A DNA stretch of 28,397 bases from a virus. Its lineage: Duplodnaviria; Heunggongvirae; Uroviricota; Caudoviricetes. Position numbers and translations under genes: made by a program. The stretch lies in IMG/VR virus record IMGVR_UViG_2663762992_000009; one strand, given 5' to 3'. The notes under the pieces were generated by a model, which worked only from the letters and a program-made list of their open reading frames with translations, searched no databases and was not told where the DNA came from. Of the stretch, positions 4,268-10,347 are shown in pieces; the stretch's first letter is position 1, and every line of letters begins with the position of its first letter.

Positions 4268-4513
4268 GTGAGAAAGTTAATCTGTCTAATTTCGTTCGTT
4301 GCAACATGCGGATTCGGGTATCAGGCATACCAGCATCATGGACTGGCTTCTCTACTGGCTTTCTTAGTCAGCTTAGGGGCTTTTCTAACTGCTGTAGCCA
4401 ACTTAATAAGTGACAAGAAGAAGTCATCCTCTATAAGCCAAGTGATTGGTAATAACTCTTCAGGAATACAAGTCAGTGGTAATTTAACCATTAATGAAAA
4501 GGACAAAAAATGA
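4268..4513 (+). CDS. small membrane protein (two predicted TM helices), first gene of AT-rich moron
   Basis: GTG start with GAGAG about 9 nt upstream; hydrophobic segments LICLISFVATCGF and LASLLAFLVSLGAFLTAVANLI; visibly AT-rich; stop overlaps the next start (ATGA). Confidence 0.5.
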   Translation: MRKLICLISFVATCGFGYQAYQHHGLASLLAFLVSLGAFLTAVANLISDKKKSSSISQVIGNNSSGIQVSGNLTINEKDKK

Positions 4514-5418
4514 GTCTTTTCGATCATAAGTCGGGTCAACATGTCGGAGATGGTTCTACCGCAATCCAAGTAACCGGTGATGCTATCATTGGTAATACTA
4601 CTACTGAAGTAGTTACTATCTGTGAATTAGTAGTTCAAGCACAAATGGCTTCTTTAAAAGAGGAAGCATATAAACTTGTAAACCAACGAGCGATAGAATT
4701 TGGTAATCAGATTGCAGCTAAACTTTCTAGTGATCTTGATCATAAATTAAAAGAGAAATTATCCGACCCTGACATTCAATATTCGATGAACCAAGCTGTA
4801 ACTCAGGTGGCTCGAAAAGGATTTGATGAAAAATCGGAGTTACTTAAAGAGCTAATCGTTTCTAAAATTCAAACTGAAGAAGAAGAGGATAGTATAGTTA
4901 TAGATCACGCTCTTGAGGTGACATCTAAATTAACAACAAACGACATTAAATTTCTCTCTCTAATATATTACCTCAGAAACATAAATAAGATACGAAACGG
5001 TATTAACATGACAGCTCTTGCTGAAAGAAATGAAACTCACTTTGGATTAATTGGCTTTACCGTAGAGCAAAACCATTCAGCCCACAAAGAATACTATGCT
5101 CGCTATGATATTGATTACATTAAATTCTTAGATAAAATAGAGTCTTTGAGAAAAATAAACATTGATCTCCTCAGCTTAAAAGGCGTTATCTTCACAGACA
5201 AGCAATACATAACAAACTATCAAGACCTACTTGAAAAAAGGACTGGAATCACCAGCTTTGAAAGCGATGAGATGTTCTTTGAAACATTTCCTGCTTTAAA
5301 GTTAACTCTAGATGCATTTGGCGTATCGACCATAAATGACTTTAATTCATATGTTTTAAATCCAATTGGCAACCTGATTGCTCAAAACTTTCTTCGGGCT
5401 CGGAACTTCCTTCAATAG
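4510..5418 (+). CDS. hypothetical 302-aa protein, second gene of AT-rich moron (candidate defence/abortive-infection or conversion function)
   Basis: Long ORF in an AT-rich segment; AAGGA RBS about 8 nt upstream; translationally coupled to the upstream small ORF; opposite orientation to the flanking late genes; no family recognised. Confidence 0.7.
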   Translation: MSLFDHKSGQHVGDGSTAIQVTGDAIIGNTTTEVVTICELVVQAQMASLKEEAYKLVNQRAIEFGNQIAAKLSSDLDHKLKEKLSDPDIQYSMNQAVTQVARKGFDEKSELLKELIVSKIQTEEEEDSIVIDHALEVTSKLTTNDIKFLSLIYYLRNINKIRNGINMTALAERNETHFGLIGFTVEQNHSAHKEYYARYDIDYIKFLDKIESLRKINIDLLSLKGVIFTDKQYITNYQDLLEKRTGITSFESDEMFFETFPALKLTLDAFGVSTINDFNSYVLNPIGNLIAQNFLRARNFLQ

Positions 5419-7467: not shown

Positions 7468-7543
<76 letters not shown>

Positions 7544-7630: not shown

Positions 7631-7737
7631 TGCGGTGCCGGACCGCTATTATTCCGGTAGATTGCGCGCTGATACACAATCTGCTTCGCGAAAATTCTCC
7701 ATTTCAGCAAGCCTCAACGCTAGTGAGATTCACCGCA
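7631..7737. repeat. repeat unit A (~100-nt element with complementary termini TGCGGTG...CACCGCA)
   Basis: Shares 5' end tgcggtgccgg and 3' end cgctagtgagattcaccgca with the units at 8860-8963 and 9074-9166; abuts the tRNA-Ile gene. Confidence 0.7.
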
Positions 7738-7938
7738 ATGAGAAAAATTTATCGTCCGCAGATTCTGGCAGGCAAGGCCTCTTCCAAATAAATTACTCAA
7801 AATGCGAAACTGCGCACGGAGAATTAAACCTTCAAAAAGCTAAGACATCACACTTGACCGGTTCAGAAAAAAATCATTATGTTCTTTCTGCTTCTCCCAT
7901 GAAGCGACCTCAATTATTTTCTGCTTATGTGTGATTTT

Positions 7939-7966
7939 GCCCGTTCTGTATGACGGGCTTTTTTCA
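7939..7966 (+). terminator. rho-independent terminator hairpin, plus orientation (element copy 1)
   Basis: GCCCGT (7939-7944) / ACGGGC (7953-7958) with an 8-nt loop, followed by TTTTTT; the preceding ~45 nt resemble the element at 9328-9400. Confidence 0.6.
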
Positions 7967-8014
7967 ACGTCATCATCCCTGTTCATTAAATGTGTATTCA
8001 TCCATCCAGGTTTA

Positions 8015-8449
8015 CTAATTCCATACAGTTCCCCTGGCGACCGAATAACGCCCTGCCCCCAGTAATGCAACTGACAGAGAGCCAACAAAAAAATACACCA
8101 GGCTTTCTATTCCCCACGCGCCAGTACTTTCGAGCATCCATGTTTCCTCTACCCCCACCAGAAGCCAGGCCACAATCATTGTAAAAGCCAGCAACAGTGC
8201 TGCGGGGCGAGTAAGAACCCCAAGAATAATCAGGCCTGGAGCCAAAACCTCTCCCACAATTGCTCCGTATGCGAAAAATCCAGGTAAGCCGTTAGCTATA
8301 AGCATGCCGCTAATACCTTCAACTCCTGCAAAGAGCTTATGCAAACCATGAAATAACATCAGCCCACCAACAGCAAGTCTTAACAGGAACTTACCAAAGT
8401 CAGCATGGGATAAGATCTGGTTAATTTTATTCAGTACGATAGTAATCAT
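8015..8449 (-). CDS. DoxX-family inner-membrane protein (cargo gene in the Q-to-lysis region)
   Basis: 144-aa ORF with four hydrophobic segments and a DoxX-like N-terminus (FGKFLLRLAVGGLMLFHGLHKL); GGAG SD 9 nt upstream of the ATG at 8449. Confidence 0.7.
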   Translation of the reverse strand: MITIVLNKINQILSHADFGKFLLRLAVGGLMLFHGLHKLFAGVEGISGMLIANGLPGFFAYGAIVGEVLAPGLIILGVLTRPAALLLAFTMIVAWLLVGVEETWMLESTGAWGIESLVYFFVGSLSVALLGAGRYSVARGTVWN

Positions 8450-8859
8450 TGTTCATCACTCCAAGTAAAAAAGGAATGAGAAAAACAAATCACCAGCAGG
8501 CTACAACAGTCAATCTGTTCGGCTGTAAATCACAAACAAGTTAAATAGACTGTTAACACCCACCCTACCTGAATTATTACGCCAAAAAAGGAGATAAAGC
8601 GATAAATCTTATTAGCATGTAACTATTGTTCAACTCAATAGAGCCCATACACTAAGTTTTATTGCCCCTAATAATCCGATGACCAACAGAATGATGCTAA
8701 TTAAGAATACCTGATTCGTTGTAAATCTGATACTGCGTAAATATGCCTTTAGAGCATTAGCAGTTCTGTATTTATTCTGCATTTTCCCGCTCAGAAATCA
8801 CATCAATGACCAATTTAAAAGTAGAGCCCGAATAATCTATCTCCACGACCCGATATGAG

Positions 8860-8963
8860 TGCGGTGCCGGTCGCAACCCGGTGAAACGTATCCATGGTGT
8901 GGTGCAATACATACTGGCAGAATGAATAGTGCCACACCCCTCACGCTGGTGAGATTCACCGCA
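8860..8963. repeat. repeat unit B
   Basis: Same conserved termini as unit A. Read on the minus strand it shows a 7-bp terminal helix, a D-arm-like hairpin (CTCA-CCAGCG-TGAG), a long central hairpin and a T-arm-like hairpin (CCGG-GTTGCGA-CCGG). Confidence 0.7.
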
Positions 8964-9073
8964 GGAGGTAACGTATAAACGGCAGGTGCTTTAGATCAAG
9001 CTTTTTATCATGTCGGCGAAATGAAAAAGGGCTCACCGAAGTGAGCCCTGAATTACCGCCGTTTTCAATTTGC

Positions 9074-9166
9074 CGCAGTGCCGGGTGCCTCCCGATGGTA
9101 TTAACCGCAACGTCAACAGTGGAAGCGAAACCTGACGATGCCCCTACGCTAGTGGGATTCACTGCA
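9074..9166. repeat. repeat unit C (more diverged copy)
   Basis: 5' end gcagtgccgg and 3' end cgctagtgggattcactgca match units A and B with a few substitutions. Confidence 0.6.
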
Positions 9167-9372
9167 ACGGGGGGAACCTATTACCCGCAGACAGCGGCTG
9201 ACAAGATATTTATTTTGCTGAAATGCCAAAATGTGAATCTGCGCATATGAAATTAAACAGAACTTAAACAATTGCAGATACGAACTTGATAGGTTTATGA
9301 AGAAATTACTACGGTCCTCAGGCTTCCCCCTATGAAGCACTTAAGCCTCTTACCTTTTCCAATTGTGATTTT

Positions 9373-9400
9373 GCCCGCTATCTGACGCGGGCCCTTTTTT
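9373..9400 (+). terminator. rho-independent terminator hairpin, plus orientation (element copy 2)
   Basis: GCCCGC (9373-9378) / GCGGGC (9387-9392) with an 8-nt loop, followed by CCTTTTTT; upstream sequence is conserved with copy 1 (atgaagc ... tgtgattttgcccg). Confidence 0.65.
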
Positions 9401-9416
9401 ATACGGAGAACTGAGA

Positions 9417-9491
9417 ATGCCGTGTCATGAAAAAATGGCTATCGCAATCTGTGTTATTGCGCTCATCTTCGCACTGATTTTTGGCAAGTAG
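9417..9491 (+). CDS. candidate 24-aa hydrophobic small ORF (MPCHEKMAIAICVIALIFALIFGK)
   Basis: ATG at 9417 preceded by GGAGA with 7-nt spacing; single hydrophobic helix; lies between a plus-strand terminator and a minus-strand terminator hairpin. Confidence 0.3.
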   Translation: MPCHEKMAIAICVIALIFALIFGK

Positions 9492-9506
9492 GTCCACCTG
9501 AAGCCG

Positions 9507-9541
9507 TCTTTTAAAAACGACAAAACCCGCACCGTGGCGGG
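9507..9541 (-). terminator. candidate tR'-like intrinsic terminator downstream of Q (minus strand)
   Basis: GC hairpin CCCGC/GCGGG (9526-9541); on the minus strand it is followed by UUUUGUCGUUUUUAAAA; about 270 nt downstream of the Q stop. Confidence 0.45.
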
Positions 9542-9807
9542 TTCATCTGGTGTTCATGTTCTGCATCCTTGACCTCGCGATACAGCTTTGCGAAGCATAC
9601 AGTGATTGAAGCAGTTTATGGCTCAAATTGCAATACTTTTTCAGCGACGTAATTTGACCTTAATCATATGCTTTATTACTCTTCGCCTGCATTTAAACAC
9701 TGATATAACTTAGTTATACTTCCATTCATCTTGCACATTGATATTTCCACAAAAATCACCCGCAGCTTTTTACTGTCAAGTTTCAGTTAGTGGATAAGCA
9801 CAACTCA

Positions 9808-10347
9808 TCACACATTCCTATCAATGGAATCCCGTAGCGGGATATAAAGCATGTATTCAACCATATACAGCCATTGGTCGATTCGTCGCCGACAGGTAAC
9901 ATAACTCCAGTCAGGGTATTTTTCCTGAAGTTTCTCAGCTATCTTTCGCTTACTCATTCCCCGTCCTTCGTAACGCTGGTGAAGCAGTGCCTTTAGTGCG
10001 GGATGATCTGCCAGAACTGCCCCGATAACCCGGTCGATTATCAGTGCTTCAGAATCAGTACAGTATGCAAGGTAGCTTTTCTGCTTACCGTTCAATATCT
10101 CACGTAAAAATTGCTCCAGTTCAGGCCTGGTAGTGCCTGATTTTTTAAGCAGCCTGAGCGCATCACGGGCGCCTGTGCGGGTGATTTTTTTACTGACCAG
10201 CAACTGATTGAAGATATTTCCCGGATGGCCATTTCCGATATAAGACCAGCGCCCCCACATTCTTAGCTTTCCCTGTACCCATAACGTCTCAAGCGTAGTG
10301 AGACGAAGCATTTCACCAGGTTTACCTGTCGTGACCGGGTAGATCAT
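9808..10347 (-). CDS. late-gene antiterminator Q-like protein
   Basis: 179-aa ORF immediately upstream of the tRNA/lysis region and after the nin genes; basic C-terminal region with HTH-like character (KRKIAEKL ... RRRIDQWL); start overlaps the upstream gene's stop. Confidence 0.75.
   Translation of the reverse strand: MIYPVTTGKPGEMLRLTTLETLWVQGKLRMWGRWSYIGNGHPGNIFNQLLVSKKITRTGARDALRLLKKSGTTRPELEQFLREILNGKQKSYLAYCTDSEALIIDRVIGAVLADHPALKALLHQRYEGRGMSKRKIAEKLQEKYPDWSYVTCRRRIDQWLYMVEYMLYIPLRDSIDRNV

What the first reader, a model, noticed from the sequence alone, without database searches (positions are those of the whole stretch)
7896..9400. Two copies of a ~70-bp element ending in a plus-strand intrinsic terminator, antisense to the late operon
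Copies at 7896-7966 and 9328-9400 share atgaagc, tgtgattttgcccg, a GC stem with an 8-nt loop and a T run. Both are oriented against late transcription and each sits on the Q-proximal side of a cargo/repeat block. Each contains a short ATG-initiated frame without an SD (MKRPQLFSAYV and MKHLSLLPFPIVILPAI) that ends at or inside the stem. They could be 3' ends of antisense small RNAs or portable terminator modules.
Basis: seen in the sequence. Interest (0 to 1): 0.45.

Follow-up and report, generated by a model that had tools for sequence, protein, structure and literature searches.

The report
Paired antisense small-RNA genes in prophage
Two diverged copies of a roughly 78-base gene that looks like a small regulatory RNA sit back-to-back with duplicated late-promoter modules of a lambda-like prophage; this kind of element is already known from pathogenic E. 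coli prophages, and this one is an undescribed, narrowly distributed example with no expression data yet.

Summary
Both elements are at the stated coordinates, with a plus-strand GC hairpin plus a T6 run and a shared 14-mer.

They are not free-standing 70-bp units. They are the ends of a diverged direct repeat of about 255 bp (7711-7964 vs 9140-9398, 62% identity, E=2e-12). That repeat also carries the start of the Q-dependent late leader (Rfam STnc100-like).

Each copy has the anatomy of an sRNA gene antisense to the late operon:
- a sigma-70-like promoter;
- a predicted +1 at the first base of a conserved 5' hairpin;
- a variable single-stranded stretch of about 33 nt;
- a conserved UGUGAUUUU block, then terminator and U6.

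No Rfam family matches. Only this one prophage lineage (rare E. coli and Salmonella assemblies) carries the element.

The closest known kind is the Hfq-binding sRNAs encoded antisense to late transcription at the moron site of lambdoid prophages (AsxR/AgvB, PasA/PasC). Position, orientation and size agree with these; sequence does not.

Verdict: a probable new member of a known kind. Expression is untested. Interest is modest.

The parts
7854..7883 (+). Predicted sigma-70-type promoter of copy B (TTGACC-18-TATGTT); predicted +1 at G7890
   Evidence: 9 of 12 consensus matches. The count of such sites in the region is not above the shuffle expectation, so the weight comes from position and from the matching layout in copy A.
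7890..7966 (+). Copy B, predicted 77-nt RNA: 5' hairpin 7890-7905 (GCUUC/GAAGC), single-stranded variable stretch 7906-7929, conserved UGUGAUUUU 7930-7938, terminator hairpin 7939-7958, U6 7959-7964
   Evidence: Fold (MFE -19.4 kcal/mol, z -3.6). Terminator. Model R1 scores 91.4 bits.
9286..9315 (+). Promoter-like site of copy A (TTGATA-18-TACGGT), same spacing and register as in copy B; weak -10; predicted +1 at G9322
   Evidence: Alignment (no gap between the -35 hexamer and the hairpin start). It falls below the threshold of the scan.
9322..9400 (+). Copy A, predicted 79-nt RNA: 5' hairpin 9322-9338, variable stretch 9339-9363, UGUGAUUUU 9364-9372, terminator 9373-9392, U6 9395-9400
   Evidence: Fold (MFE -17.8 kcal/mol, z -3.4, 0 of 200 shuffles as stable). 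Terminator. R1 scores 95.1 bits.
7711..7964 (.). Extended repeat, copy B: late-leader start (ACGCTAGTGAGATTCACCGCA), conserved block CAAAATGCGAAACTGCGCA, then the sRNA-like gene
9140..9398 (.). Extended repeat, copy A: same order of blocks
9018..9195 (-). STnc100-family late leader RNA with its terminator (tR'-like, 9049-9028), divergent from copy A (5' ends about 127 bp apart)
   Evidence: Rfam RF02076, 66.2 bits against a gathering score of 47; terminator
7650..7768 (-). STnc100-like leader remnant divergent from copy B (5' ends about 122 bp apart); runs into the tRNA gene and has no terminator of its own
   Evidence: 18 bits, below gathering; cut by the end of the stretch searched; leader block, family D1
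8817..8987 (-). Third, degenerate STnc100-like leader copy with no associated sRNA-like gene
   Evidence: 23.3 bits, E=0.019
9808..10347 (-). Late antiterminator Q (context)
   Evidence: PHROG 753 at 3e-64; Pfam DUF1133 and Phage_antitermQ
8015..8449 (-). DoxX cargo (moron) gene, convergent with copy B (48 nt between the gene's end and the RNA's 3' end)
   Evidence: Pfam DoxX at 1e-20. Homology to the chromosomal Citrobacter DoxX gene is confined to the coding sequence.

Best explanation
The two elements are paralogous small-RNA genes of a lambdoid prophage, transcribed on the plus strand, that is, against the late operon.

Proposed mechanism:
1. Each is read from its own sigma-70 promoter. 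Each starts at the first base of a short 5' hairpin (G7890, G9322) and ends at an intrinsic terminator (about 7964-7966 and 9398-9400). The products are RNAs of about 77 and 79 nt.
2. The conserved 3' part (UGUGAUUUU, GC hairpin, U6) is the kind of module that binds Hfq and terminates transcription.
3. The 5' hairpin would protect the 5' end.
4. The diverged unstructured middle of 24-25 nt would be the base-pairing region. The two copies would therefore have different targets (host or prophage mRNAs, or host sRNAs).
5. Because the promoters are independent of Q, the RNAs would be made in the lysogen.

Each gene lies back-to-back with a copy of the Q-dependent late promoter/leader (STnc100-like). 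The pair arose when that whole module was duplicated, or brought in by recombination between phages, as cargo was added between Q and the lysis genes.

Shown: homology of the two modules, strand-specific terminators, folds, conservation pattern, absence of coding signal, genomic context.
Inferred: transcription, the 5' ends, Hfq binding, trans-acting function.
For: 1. The copies are homologous over about 255 bp (E=2e-12, score 165.5 vs 25 +/- 7).

2. Both fold the same way: a 5-bp 5' hairpin, about 33 nt unpaired, then the terminator. Z-scores are -3.6 and -3.4.

3. The terminators are plus-strand specific. The T6 run follows the stem only on the plus strand, and copy B's 7th pair is G-U on the plus strand, which would be A-C on the minus strand.

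4. Copy B has TTGACC-18-TATGTT at 7854-7883, which puts +1 at the first base of the hairpin. Copy A has TTGATA-18-TACGGT in the same register, with no gap between the -35 hexamer and the hairpin, while gaps occur on both sides of that stretch.

5. Positions with an assigned role (promoter hexamers, stems, U-rich block, U run) are 43/49 identical. All other positions are 35/67 identical (Fisher p=5e-5; categories chosen after seeing the sequences).

6. One terminator pair changes on both sides: T-A in copy B, C-G in copy A.

7. The homology stops at the end of the U run on the cargo side. DoxX's homology to chromosomal genes stops inside its coding sequence. So the RNA gene belongs to the promoter module, not to the cargo.

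8. There is experimental precedent. In EHEC, Hfq-bound sRNAs are encoded convergently at the moron site downstream of PR' (PMC4104026). In EPEC E2348/69, PasA (85 nt) and PasC (79 nt) are Hfq-dependent, detected by Northern blot, and lie antisense to the late operon directly downstream of the esterase moron; for PasA the next gene is the holin (PMC8550237 table S6; loci).
Against: - There are no expression data of any kind.
- Promoter-like sites are not enriched in the region (3 found, 4.4 expected). Copy A's -10 (TACGGT) is poor and fails the scan's threshold.
- Only two paralogues exist, so there is one compensatory pair and no real covariation test.
- Among 12 near-identical loci the only SNPs inside the elements are G7933A, in the conserved U-rich block, and G9377T, which breaks a terminator pair in L035. 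That is no sign of strong purifying selection.
- The U run is only 6 nt, at the low end for Hfq-dependent sRNAs (my own knowledge of that class).
- No Rfam family matches, and no relative was found outside this prophage lineage.
- No better-than-chance target among translation start regions within the window.
Confidence: 0.55

Rival explanations
1. The elements are insulators or relics. The plus-strand terminators only stop stray antisense transcription, which might start at a divergent promoter upstream of the late promoter or inside cargo, before it enters Q or the cargo gene. The short RNA made has no function of its own. The resemblance between the copies is inherited from the duplicated late-promoter module.
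For: - The elements are part of a longer duplicated module.
- Overall identity of the RNA part is close to the module average.
- Copy A has a weak -10.
- One natural variant breaks a terminator pair.
- The distribution is narrow.
Against: - A mere stop signal does not explain the fully conserved 5' hairpin that starts at the predicted +1.
- It does not explain the 9 conserved bases upstream of the terminator stem.
- It does not explain the gap-free promoter-to-hairpin spacing, or the contrast of 88% vs 52% identity between assigned and unassigned positions.
Confidence: 0.2
2. The RNAs act in cis as antisense regulators, in the manner of lambda OOP RNA or the paQ transcript. They would pair perfectly with the opposite-strand transcript that crosses them: for copy A, read-through of the Q message; for copy B, the late or cargo transcript between DoxX and the tRNA genes. 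This would trigger cleavage or interfere with transcription, damping Q or late expression in the lysogen.
For: - Both are fully complementary to any minus-strand read-through transcript, as the sequence shows directly.
- Size and layout (own promoter, about 77 nt, terminator) match OOP RNA (my own knowledge of phage lambda).
- Each is coupled to a late-promoter module.
Against: - Neither copy overlaps a coding sequence. Copy B ends 48 nt from the DoxX stop, and copy A lies about 400 nt from the Q stop.
- A minus-strand terminator at 9544-9523 lies between Q and copy A. Without N-type antitermination little Q read-through would reach copy A.
- The validated sRNAs at this position in E. coli act in trans (PMC4104026, PMC8550237).
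Confidence: 0.1
3. Copy A is the 5' leader or attenuator of the small hydrophobic ORF that follows it (9417-9491, MPCHEKMAIAICVIALIFALIFGK). Read-through of its terminator would control a toxin-like peptide.
For: GGAG at 9405-9408 and ATG at 9417 lie directly after the terminator. The peptide is hydrophobic, like type I toxins (my own knowledge of that class).
Against: - Copy B has no such ORF downstream, and the A/B homology ends at 9398, before the ORF.
- No family or phage match was found for the peptide.
- A natural variant changes its Met7 to Ile (9437 G>T).
Confidence: 0.06
4. The short ATG frames (11 and 17 codons) encode micropeptides.
For: Both frames start with ATG-AAG at the same place in the element.
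Against: - After the first two residues the peptides are unrelated, and their lengths differ.
- The conserved 14-mer is read in different frames: T7930 is codon position 2 and T9364 is codon position 3.
- There is no Shine-Dalgarno sequence, and the ATG sits in the 3' arm of the 5' hairpin.
Confidence: 0.03
5. The match is a chance resemblance between two generic terminators.
For: GC hairpins followed by a T run are common. The count of terminator-like sites in the region (6) is only modestly above shuffles (2.6 +/- 1.9).
Against: Homology runs over about 255 bp with E=2e-12 and z of about 20. There are 9 identical bases upstream of the stem and identical 5' hairpin arms.
Confidence: 0.01

Closest known systems
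PasA / PasC sRNAs of EPEC E2348/69 lambdoid prophages (homologues EcOnc51/52 in EHEC)
   Same: - They are about 80 nt (85 and 79 nt) and end in an intrinsic terminator. In the DNA upstream of PasA I read a TTGACA -35-like hexamer, consistent with its own promoter.
- They are encoded antisense to the late operon, directly downstream of the cargo (esterase) gene; PasA lies between it and the holin. A PasD/STnc100-type late leader lies upstream of the cargo.
- This is the position and orientation of copy B (PMC8550237 table S6; loci; bioRxiv 10.64898/2026.05.13.724894).
   Different: - There is no detectable sequence or structure similarity. Model R1 finds nothing at the PasA or PasC positions with filters off, and the alignment shows only scattered matches.
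- PasA is processed from a longer transcript and is followed by a second sRNA in tandem.
- The elements here are physically joined to the upstream edge of a late-promoter module, and one of them lies between Q and the late promoter.
- PasA and PasC are experimentally validated; these elements are not.
AsxR / AgvB 'anti-sRNAs' (EcOnc01-03) of EHEC O157 prophages, Rfam RF02703 / RF02702
   Same: - Prophage sRNA genes at the moron site downstream of PR', antisense to the late or toxin transcript.
- A family of paralogues with a conserved 3' part and a variable pairing part (PMC4104026).
   Different: - No match to either Rfam model even at E up to 10.
- Those RNAs are 51-60 nt, with the variable part at the very 5' end. 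Here the predicted RNAs are 77-79 nt, with a conserved 5' hairpin and a variable middle.
- A sponge function is untested here.
Lambda OOP RNA (77-nt antisense RNA with its own promoter and terminator)
   Same: Size, self-contained promoter-to-terminator unit, and orientation against a major phage operon (my own knowledge of phage lambda).
   Different: OOP overlaps the 3' end of the cII coding sequence and acts in cis through RNase III. These elements overlap no coding sequence, and no sequence similarity is claimed or was tested.
Esr41 (Rfam RF02676)
   Same: About 74 nt with a 5' hairpin, a U/C-rich single strand and a terminator. It gave the best, though insignificant, Rfam alignment for copy A.
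   Different: It scores 19.3 bits against a gathering score of 102, E=1.2. In E. coli, Esr41 lies in the iha/tellurite island, not next to Q or a late promoter.

Membership tests
AsxR/AgvB anti-sRNA family (Rfam RF02703, RF02702) | Match to the family covariance model | tested here: not met
   No hit for either family in 7650-9650 at E up to 10
AsxR/AgvB anti-sRNA family (Rfam RF02703, RF02702) | Encoded downstream of PR' at the moron site, antisense to late transcription | tested here: met
   Copy B lies 48 nt from the end of the DoxX cargo gene on the opposite strand. Copy A lies upstream of the STnc100 leader rather than downstream of it.
AsxR/AgvB anti-sRNA family (Rfam RF02703, RF02702) | Length 51-60 nt, with a variable 14-18 nt 5' end and a conserved 42-nt 3' part | tested here: not met
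   Predicted lengths are 77 and 79 nt. The 5' hairpin is conserved and the middle is variable.
AsxR/AgvB anti-sRNA family (Rfam RF02703, RF02702) | Binds Hfq and titrates a core sRNA | not testable with these tools
   Needs Hfq CLIP, RIL-seq or genetics
PasA/PasC sRNAs | Sequence similarity to PasA or PasC of E2348/69 | tested here: not met
   Alignment A4 shows only scattered identities. Model R1 with filters off gives no hit at L071:3616-3700(-) or L072:3333-3410(-).
PasA/PasC sRNAs | An sRNA of about 80 nt, antisense to the late operon, directly downstream of the moron (before the holin in the PasA locus) | tested here: met
   Copy B: DoxX, then the element, then tRNAs, then holin. PasA and PasC loci.
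PasA/PasC sRNAs | Hfq-dependent stability and a Northern-detectable transcript | not testable with these tools
   No expression data for this prophage
Esr41 (RF02676) | Score at or above the gathering threshold | tested here: not met
   19.3 bits vs 102, E=1.2; different genomic context
Hfq-type trans-acting sRNA (general class) | Rho-independent terminator with a U tail, preceded by a U-rich single strand | tested here: met
   Terminators with T6. UGUGAUUUU lies directly upstream of the stem in both copies. A U6 tail is at the short end of the usual range.
Hfq-type trans-acting sRNA (general class) | Own promoter and a defined 5' end | tested here: inconclusive
   Consensus-like site for copy B, weak site for copy A, same register in both. 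This is a pattern match only.
Hfq-type trans-acting sRNA (general class) | Structure supported by covariation | tested here: inconclusive
   Only two paralogues: one compensatory pair in the terminator, and the 5' stem is invariant
STnc100 (RF02076), the flanking late leader | Score at or above the gathering threshold | tested here: met
   9018-9195(-) scores 66.2 bits vs 47. The copies at 8817-8987 and 7650-7768 are below threshold.

The most novel reading that the evidence does not exclude
The antisense RNA gene and the Q-dependent late promoter/leader form one co-inherited, back-to-back regulatory module. In it, the RNA acts on the phage's own Q or late read-through transcripts as an OOP/paQ-like brake on lytic commitment. 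The RNA's terminator edge is the fixed joint at which cargo genes are swapped in. That would explain why each copy sits exactly at the Q-proximal boundary of a cargo block.
Probability: 0.12. Interest if true: 0.55.

Novelty: new member of a known kind. Interest (0 to 1): 0.3.

Why it matters
If the RNAs are expressed, they add an undescribed sequence family to the prophage sRNAs that sit antisense to the late operon at cargo sites. That class rewires host regulation in EHEC and EPEC.

Two paralogues with conserved scaffold parts and a diverged pairing region in one prophage would be a compact example of how such sRNAs diversify. Their tight coupling to duplicated late-promoter modules also shows how cargo was stacked between Q and the lysis genes.

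The practical reach is limited. The element is confined to a rare prophage lineage, and nothing here links it to a phenotype.

Tried and rejected
Searches for relatives, all negative outside the same prophage:
- E. coli complete genomes by megablast and blastn.
- INPHARED phages.
- IMG/VR with five different patterns. The extra hits were coding regions of unrelated high-GC phages, or a terminator next to a tRNA/tmRNA-like sequence.
- JGI metagenomes: 12 chance hits.
- 31 loci with Q relatives of 51-82% identity from GTDB genomes, by blastn and by covariance model R1 (best 20.8 bits, E=0.13, on the wrong strand).

Other checks that led nowhere or gave a negative answer:
- Phages that share the exact leader block (L044, L045) have a late-direction terminator instead of the element.
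- Klebsiella and Superficieibacter loci with STnc100 also lack it.
- Esr41 lead: rejected on score and context.
- PasA/PasC homology: rejected.
- Origin of copy B as the native flank of DoxX: rejected.
- Exact look-up of the holin gave no new context.
- Target search within the window: duplex energies no better than shuffled seeds.
- Literature search for the sequences themselves: nothing relevant.
- Locating the late promoter precisely: two weak candidate hexamer pairs upstream of the STnc100 copy, not resolved.
Full report
**Context**

The window is a lambdoid prophage whose late operon runs on the minus strand. In the direction of late transcription the order is:
- the antiterminator Q at 9808-10347 (PHROG 753, 3e-64; Pfam DUF1133 and Phage_antitermQ);
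- an isrK-like remnant with a minus-strand terminator at 9544-9523;
- copy A of the element;
- a full STnc100-family leader RNA at 9195-9018, ending in a terminator at 9049-9028 (66.2 bits against a gathering score of 47);
- a degenerate second leader copy at 8987-8817 (23 bits);
- a 50-codon ORF;
- a DoxX cargo gene at 8449-8015;
- copy B of the element;
- a third leader remnant at 7768-7650;
- a tRNA at 7623-7547 and a truncated tRNA at 7536-7479;
- two terminator-like sites at 7317-7292 and 7267-7251;
- holin, endolysin and Rz.

STnc100 and the related PasD RNAs are described as prophage sRNAs encoded close to antiterminator Q genes (bioRxiv 10.64898/2026.05.13.724894). That agrees with reading these copies as late-promoter leaders.

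**Checking the observation**

- The shared ATGAAGC, the 14/14 identical TGTGATTTTGCCCG, and the plus-strand GC hairpins with T6 runs are all there.
- The two short frames translate as written.
- The two 70-bp pieces are the ends of a longer diverged direct repeat, 7711-7964 vs 9140-9398. It has 62% identity over 261 columns, E=2e-12. The global alignment scores 165.5 against 25 +/- 7 for shuffled sequence.
- Besides the element, the repeat holds the start of the late leader (ACGCTAGTGRGATTCACYGCA, present three times) and a conserved block CAAAATGYGAAWCTGCGCA.

So the resemblance is true homology, not a generic terminator. The unit is a late-promoter module with the element at its Q-proximal edge.

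**Anatomy of the element**

Copy B:
- It has a sigma-70-like site, TTGACC-18-TATGTT, at 7854-7883.
- Seven bases downstream is G7890, the first base of a 5-bp hairpin GCUUC-UCCCAU-GAAGC.

Copy A:
- It has TTGATA-18-TACGGT at 9286-9315 in the same register.
- G9322 opens the hairpin GCUUC-CCCCUAU-GAAGC.

Shared features:
- From these starts both RNAs fold identically: the 5' hairpin, 33-34 unpaired nucleotides, then the terminator hairpin. MFE is -19.4 and -17.8 kcal/mol, with z -3.6 and -3.4.
- The alignment has no gap between the -35 hexamer and the hairpin, although gaps occur just upstream, in the hairpin loop and in the middle.
- Positions to which I can assign a role (hexamers, both stems, the nine bases UGUGAUUUU before the terminator, the U run) are 43/49 identical. 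The remaining positions (spacer, loops, middle) are 35/67 identical. Fisher p=5e-5, with the caveat that the classes were defined after seeing the sequences.
- The sixth terminator pair is T-A in copy B and C-G in copy A, a change on both sides.
- The U run follows the stem only on the plus strand. Copy B's seventh pair is G-U on the plus strand only. The plus strand is therefore the functional one.

A U-rich stretch directly before a terminator hairpin with a U tail is the usual Hfq-binding module of enterobacterial sRNAs. This rests on my own knowledge of that class and was not tested here.

**Not coding**

- The two short frames share only Met-Lys.
- They have different lengths.
- They read the conserved 14-mer in different frames.
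- They lack a ribosome-binding site.
- Their ATG lies in the 3' arm of the 5' hairpin.

**Distribution**

Where the element is absent:
- No Rfam family matches. The best is Esr41 at 19.3 bits (gathering 102, E=1.2), and AgvB and AsxR give nothing at E up to 10.
- Nothing turned up in 5,426 complete E. coli genomes, in INPHARED phages or in JGI metagenomes.
- IMG/VR holds one contig, which is the same prophage at 99.96% identity.
- Thirty-one loci with Q relatives (51-82% identity) from other Enterobacterales lack it by blastn and by a covariance model built from the two copies.
- Phages that share the exact leader block carry a late-direction terminator at this position instead.

Where the element is present:
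- Exact look-ups of the window's Q and DoxX proteins returned assemblies named E. coli and Salmonella enterica.
- In all 11 of those loci both copies are 99-100% identical.
- The block 9641-7482 (9641-7547 in L039) is conserved at about 99.4-99.5%. Its two sides vary: some relatives carry a full isrK-C4-ORF6N module between Q and the block, and others carry a different lysis cassette.
- The only SNPs inside the elements are G7933A and G9377T. The latter breaks a terminator pair in one locus.

The comparative evidence therefore rests on the two paralogues alone.

**Where the element belongs**

- On the cargo side the A/B homology ends at the last bases of the U run.
- The phage DoxX gene is about 75% identical in protein to a chromosomal Citrobacter gene. 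The DNA homology is confined to 8401-8037, inside the coding sequence.
- Copy B is therefore part of the promoter module, not of the cargo. The RNA's 3' end marks the joint with the cargo.

**Comparison with what is known**

Tree et al. found that EHEC lambdoid prophages carry Hfq-bound sRNA genes convergent with the cargo gene at the moron site downstream of PR'. These include AsxR and AgvB, a family with conserved 3' parts and variable pairing parts (PMC4104026).

In EPEC E2348/69, PasA (85 nt) and PasC (79 nt) are Northern-validated and Hfq-dependent. Both lie on the strand opposite the late operon, directly downstream of the esterase cargo gene; PasA lies between it and the holin. A PasD/STnc100-type leader lies upstream (PMC8550237 table S6; loci). 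That is the position, orientation and size of copy B.

Sequence membership in any of these families fails. Esr41 is excluded by score and by context, since it lies in the iha island.

The element works like these sRNAs as far as anatomy can tell, but it is a separate sequence family. It has two features of its own:
- it is fused back-to-back with a late-promoter/leader module, with 5' ends 122-127 bp apart;
- one copy lies between Q and the late promoter rather than after cargo.

**Explanations weighed**

| Explanation | Weight |
|---|---|
| Two paralogous sRNA genes made in the lysogen, conserved scaffold and diverged pairing region, probably chaperone-dependent and trans-acting | 0.55 |
| Terminators that merely insulate, on relics of a duplicated module | 0.2 |
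| OOP-like cis-antisense action on Q or late read-through transcripts | 0.1 |
| Copy A as leader of the small hydrophobic ORF at 9417-9491 | 0.06 |
| Micropeptides from the short ATG frames | 0.03 |
| Chance resemblance | 0.01 |

A search for targets among translation start regions inside the window gave nothing above shuffled controls.

**Verdict**

The small-RNA interpretation is the best-supported one but lacks expression evidence. It is a new member of a known kind and of modest interest.

Noticed in passing
window 9417-9491 (+), GGAG at 9405-9408: A 24-codon hydrophobic ORF (MPCHEKMAIAICVIALIFALIFGK) starts 17 nt after copy A's U run and has a ribosome-binding site. It resembles a type I toxin or a small membrane protein. 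It has no NCBIfam match and no tblastn match in phages. A natural variant changes Met7 to Ile.
   Followed up: partly
window 9195-9018, 8987-8817, 7768-7650 (all minus strand): There are three tandem copies of the STnc100-type late leader between Q and the lysis genes. Only the first is complete and has a terminator. The third runs straight into the tRNA genes, so a second late promoter upstream of it might drive the tRNAs. The late promoter hexamers could not be placed with confidence.
   Followed up: partly
window 9520-9596 (-); L038 2993-3803, L039 2992-3804: Downstream of Q lies a weak isrK-like remnant with a minus-strand terminator. Related prophages carry a complete isrK + C4 antisense RNA + ORF6N (P1-type c4/ant immunity) module inserted between Q and the otherwise identical block.
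   Followed up: partly
window 8015-8449 (-): The DoxX cargo gene is about 75% identical in protein to a chromosomal Citrobacter gene that lies between a TPP-dependent enzyme gene and hcr/hcp-like (Prismane) genes. DNA homology stops inside the coding sequence, so only the ORF was captured.
   Followed up: yes
window 7479-7536 (-): The second tRNA gene matches only model positions 8-63 of the tRNA family, so it looks truncated (anticodon loop CUUCUAG, which would read Arg AGA). The relative L038 has three intact tRNA genes at this place.
   Followed up: no
window 4510-5418 (+): A 302-codon ORF lies on the strand opposite the late operon, between the Rz gene and the terminase genes. Its Pfam hit on record is Vpar_1526, and it matches PHROG 19542 of unknown function. 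It may be another cargo gene.
   Followed up: no
window 7317-7292 and 7267-7251 (-): Two terminator-like hairpins lie between the tRNA genes and the holin start. They would stop cargo- or tRNA-derived transcription before the lysis genes when Q is absent.
   Followed up: no
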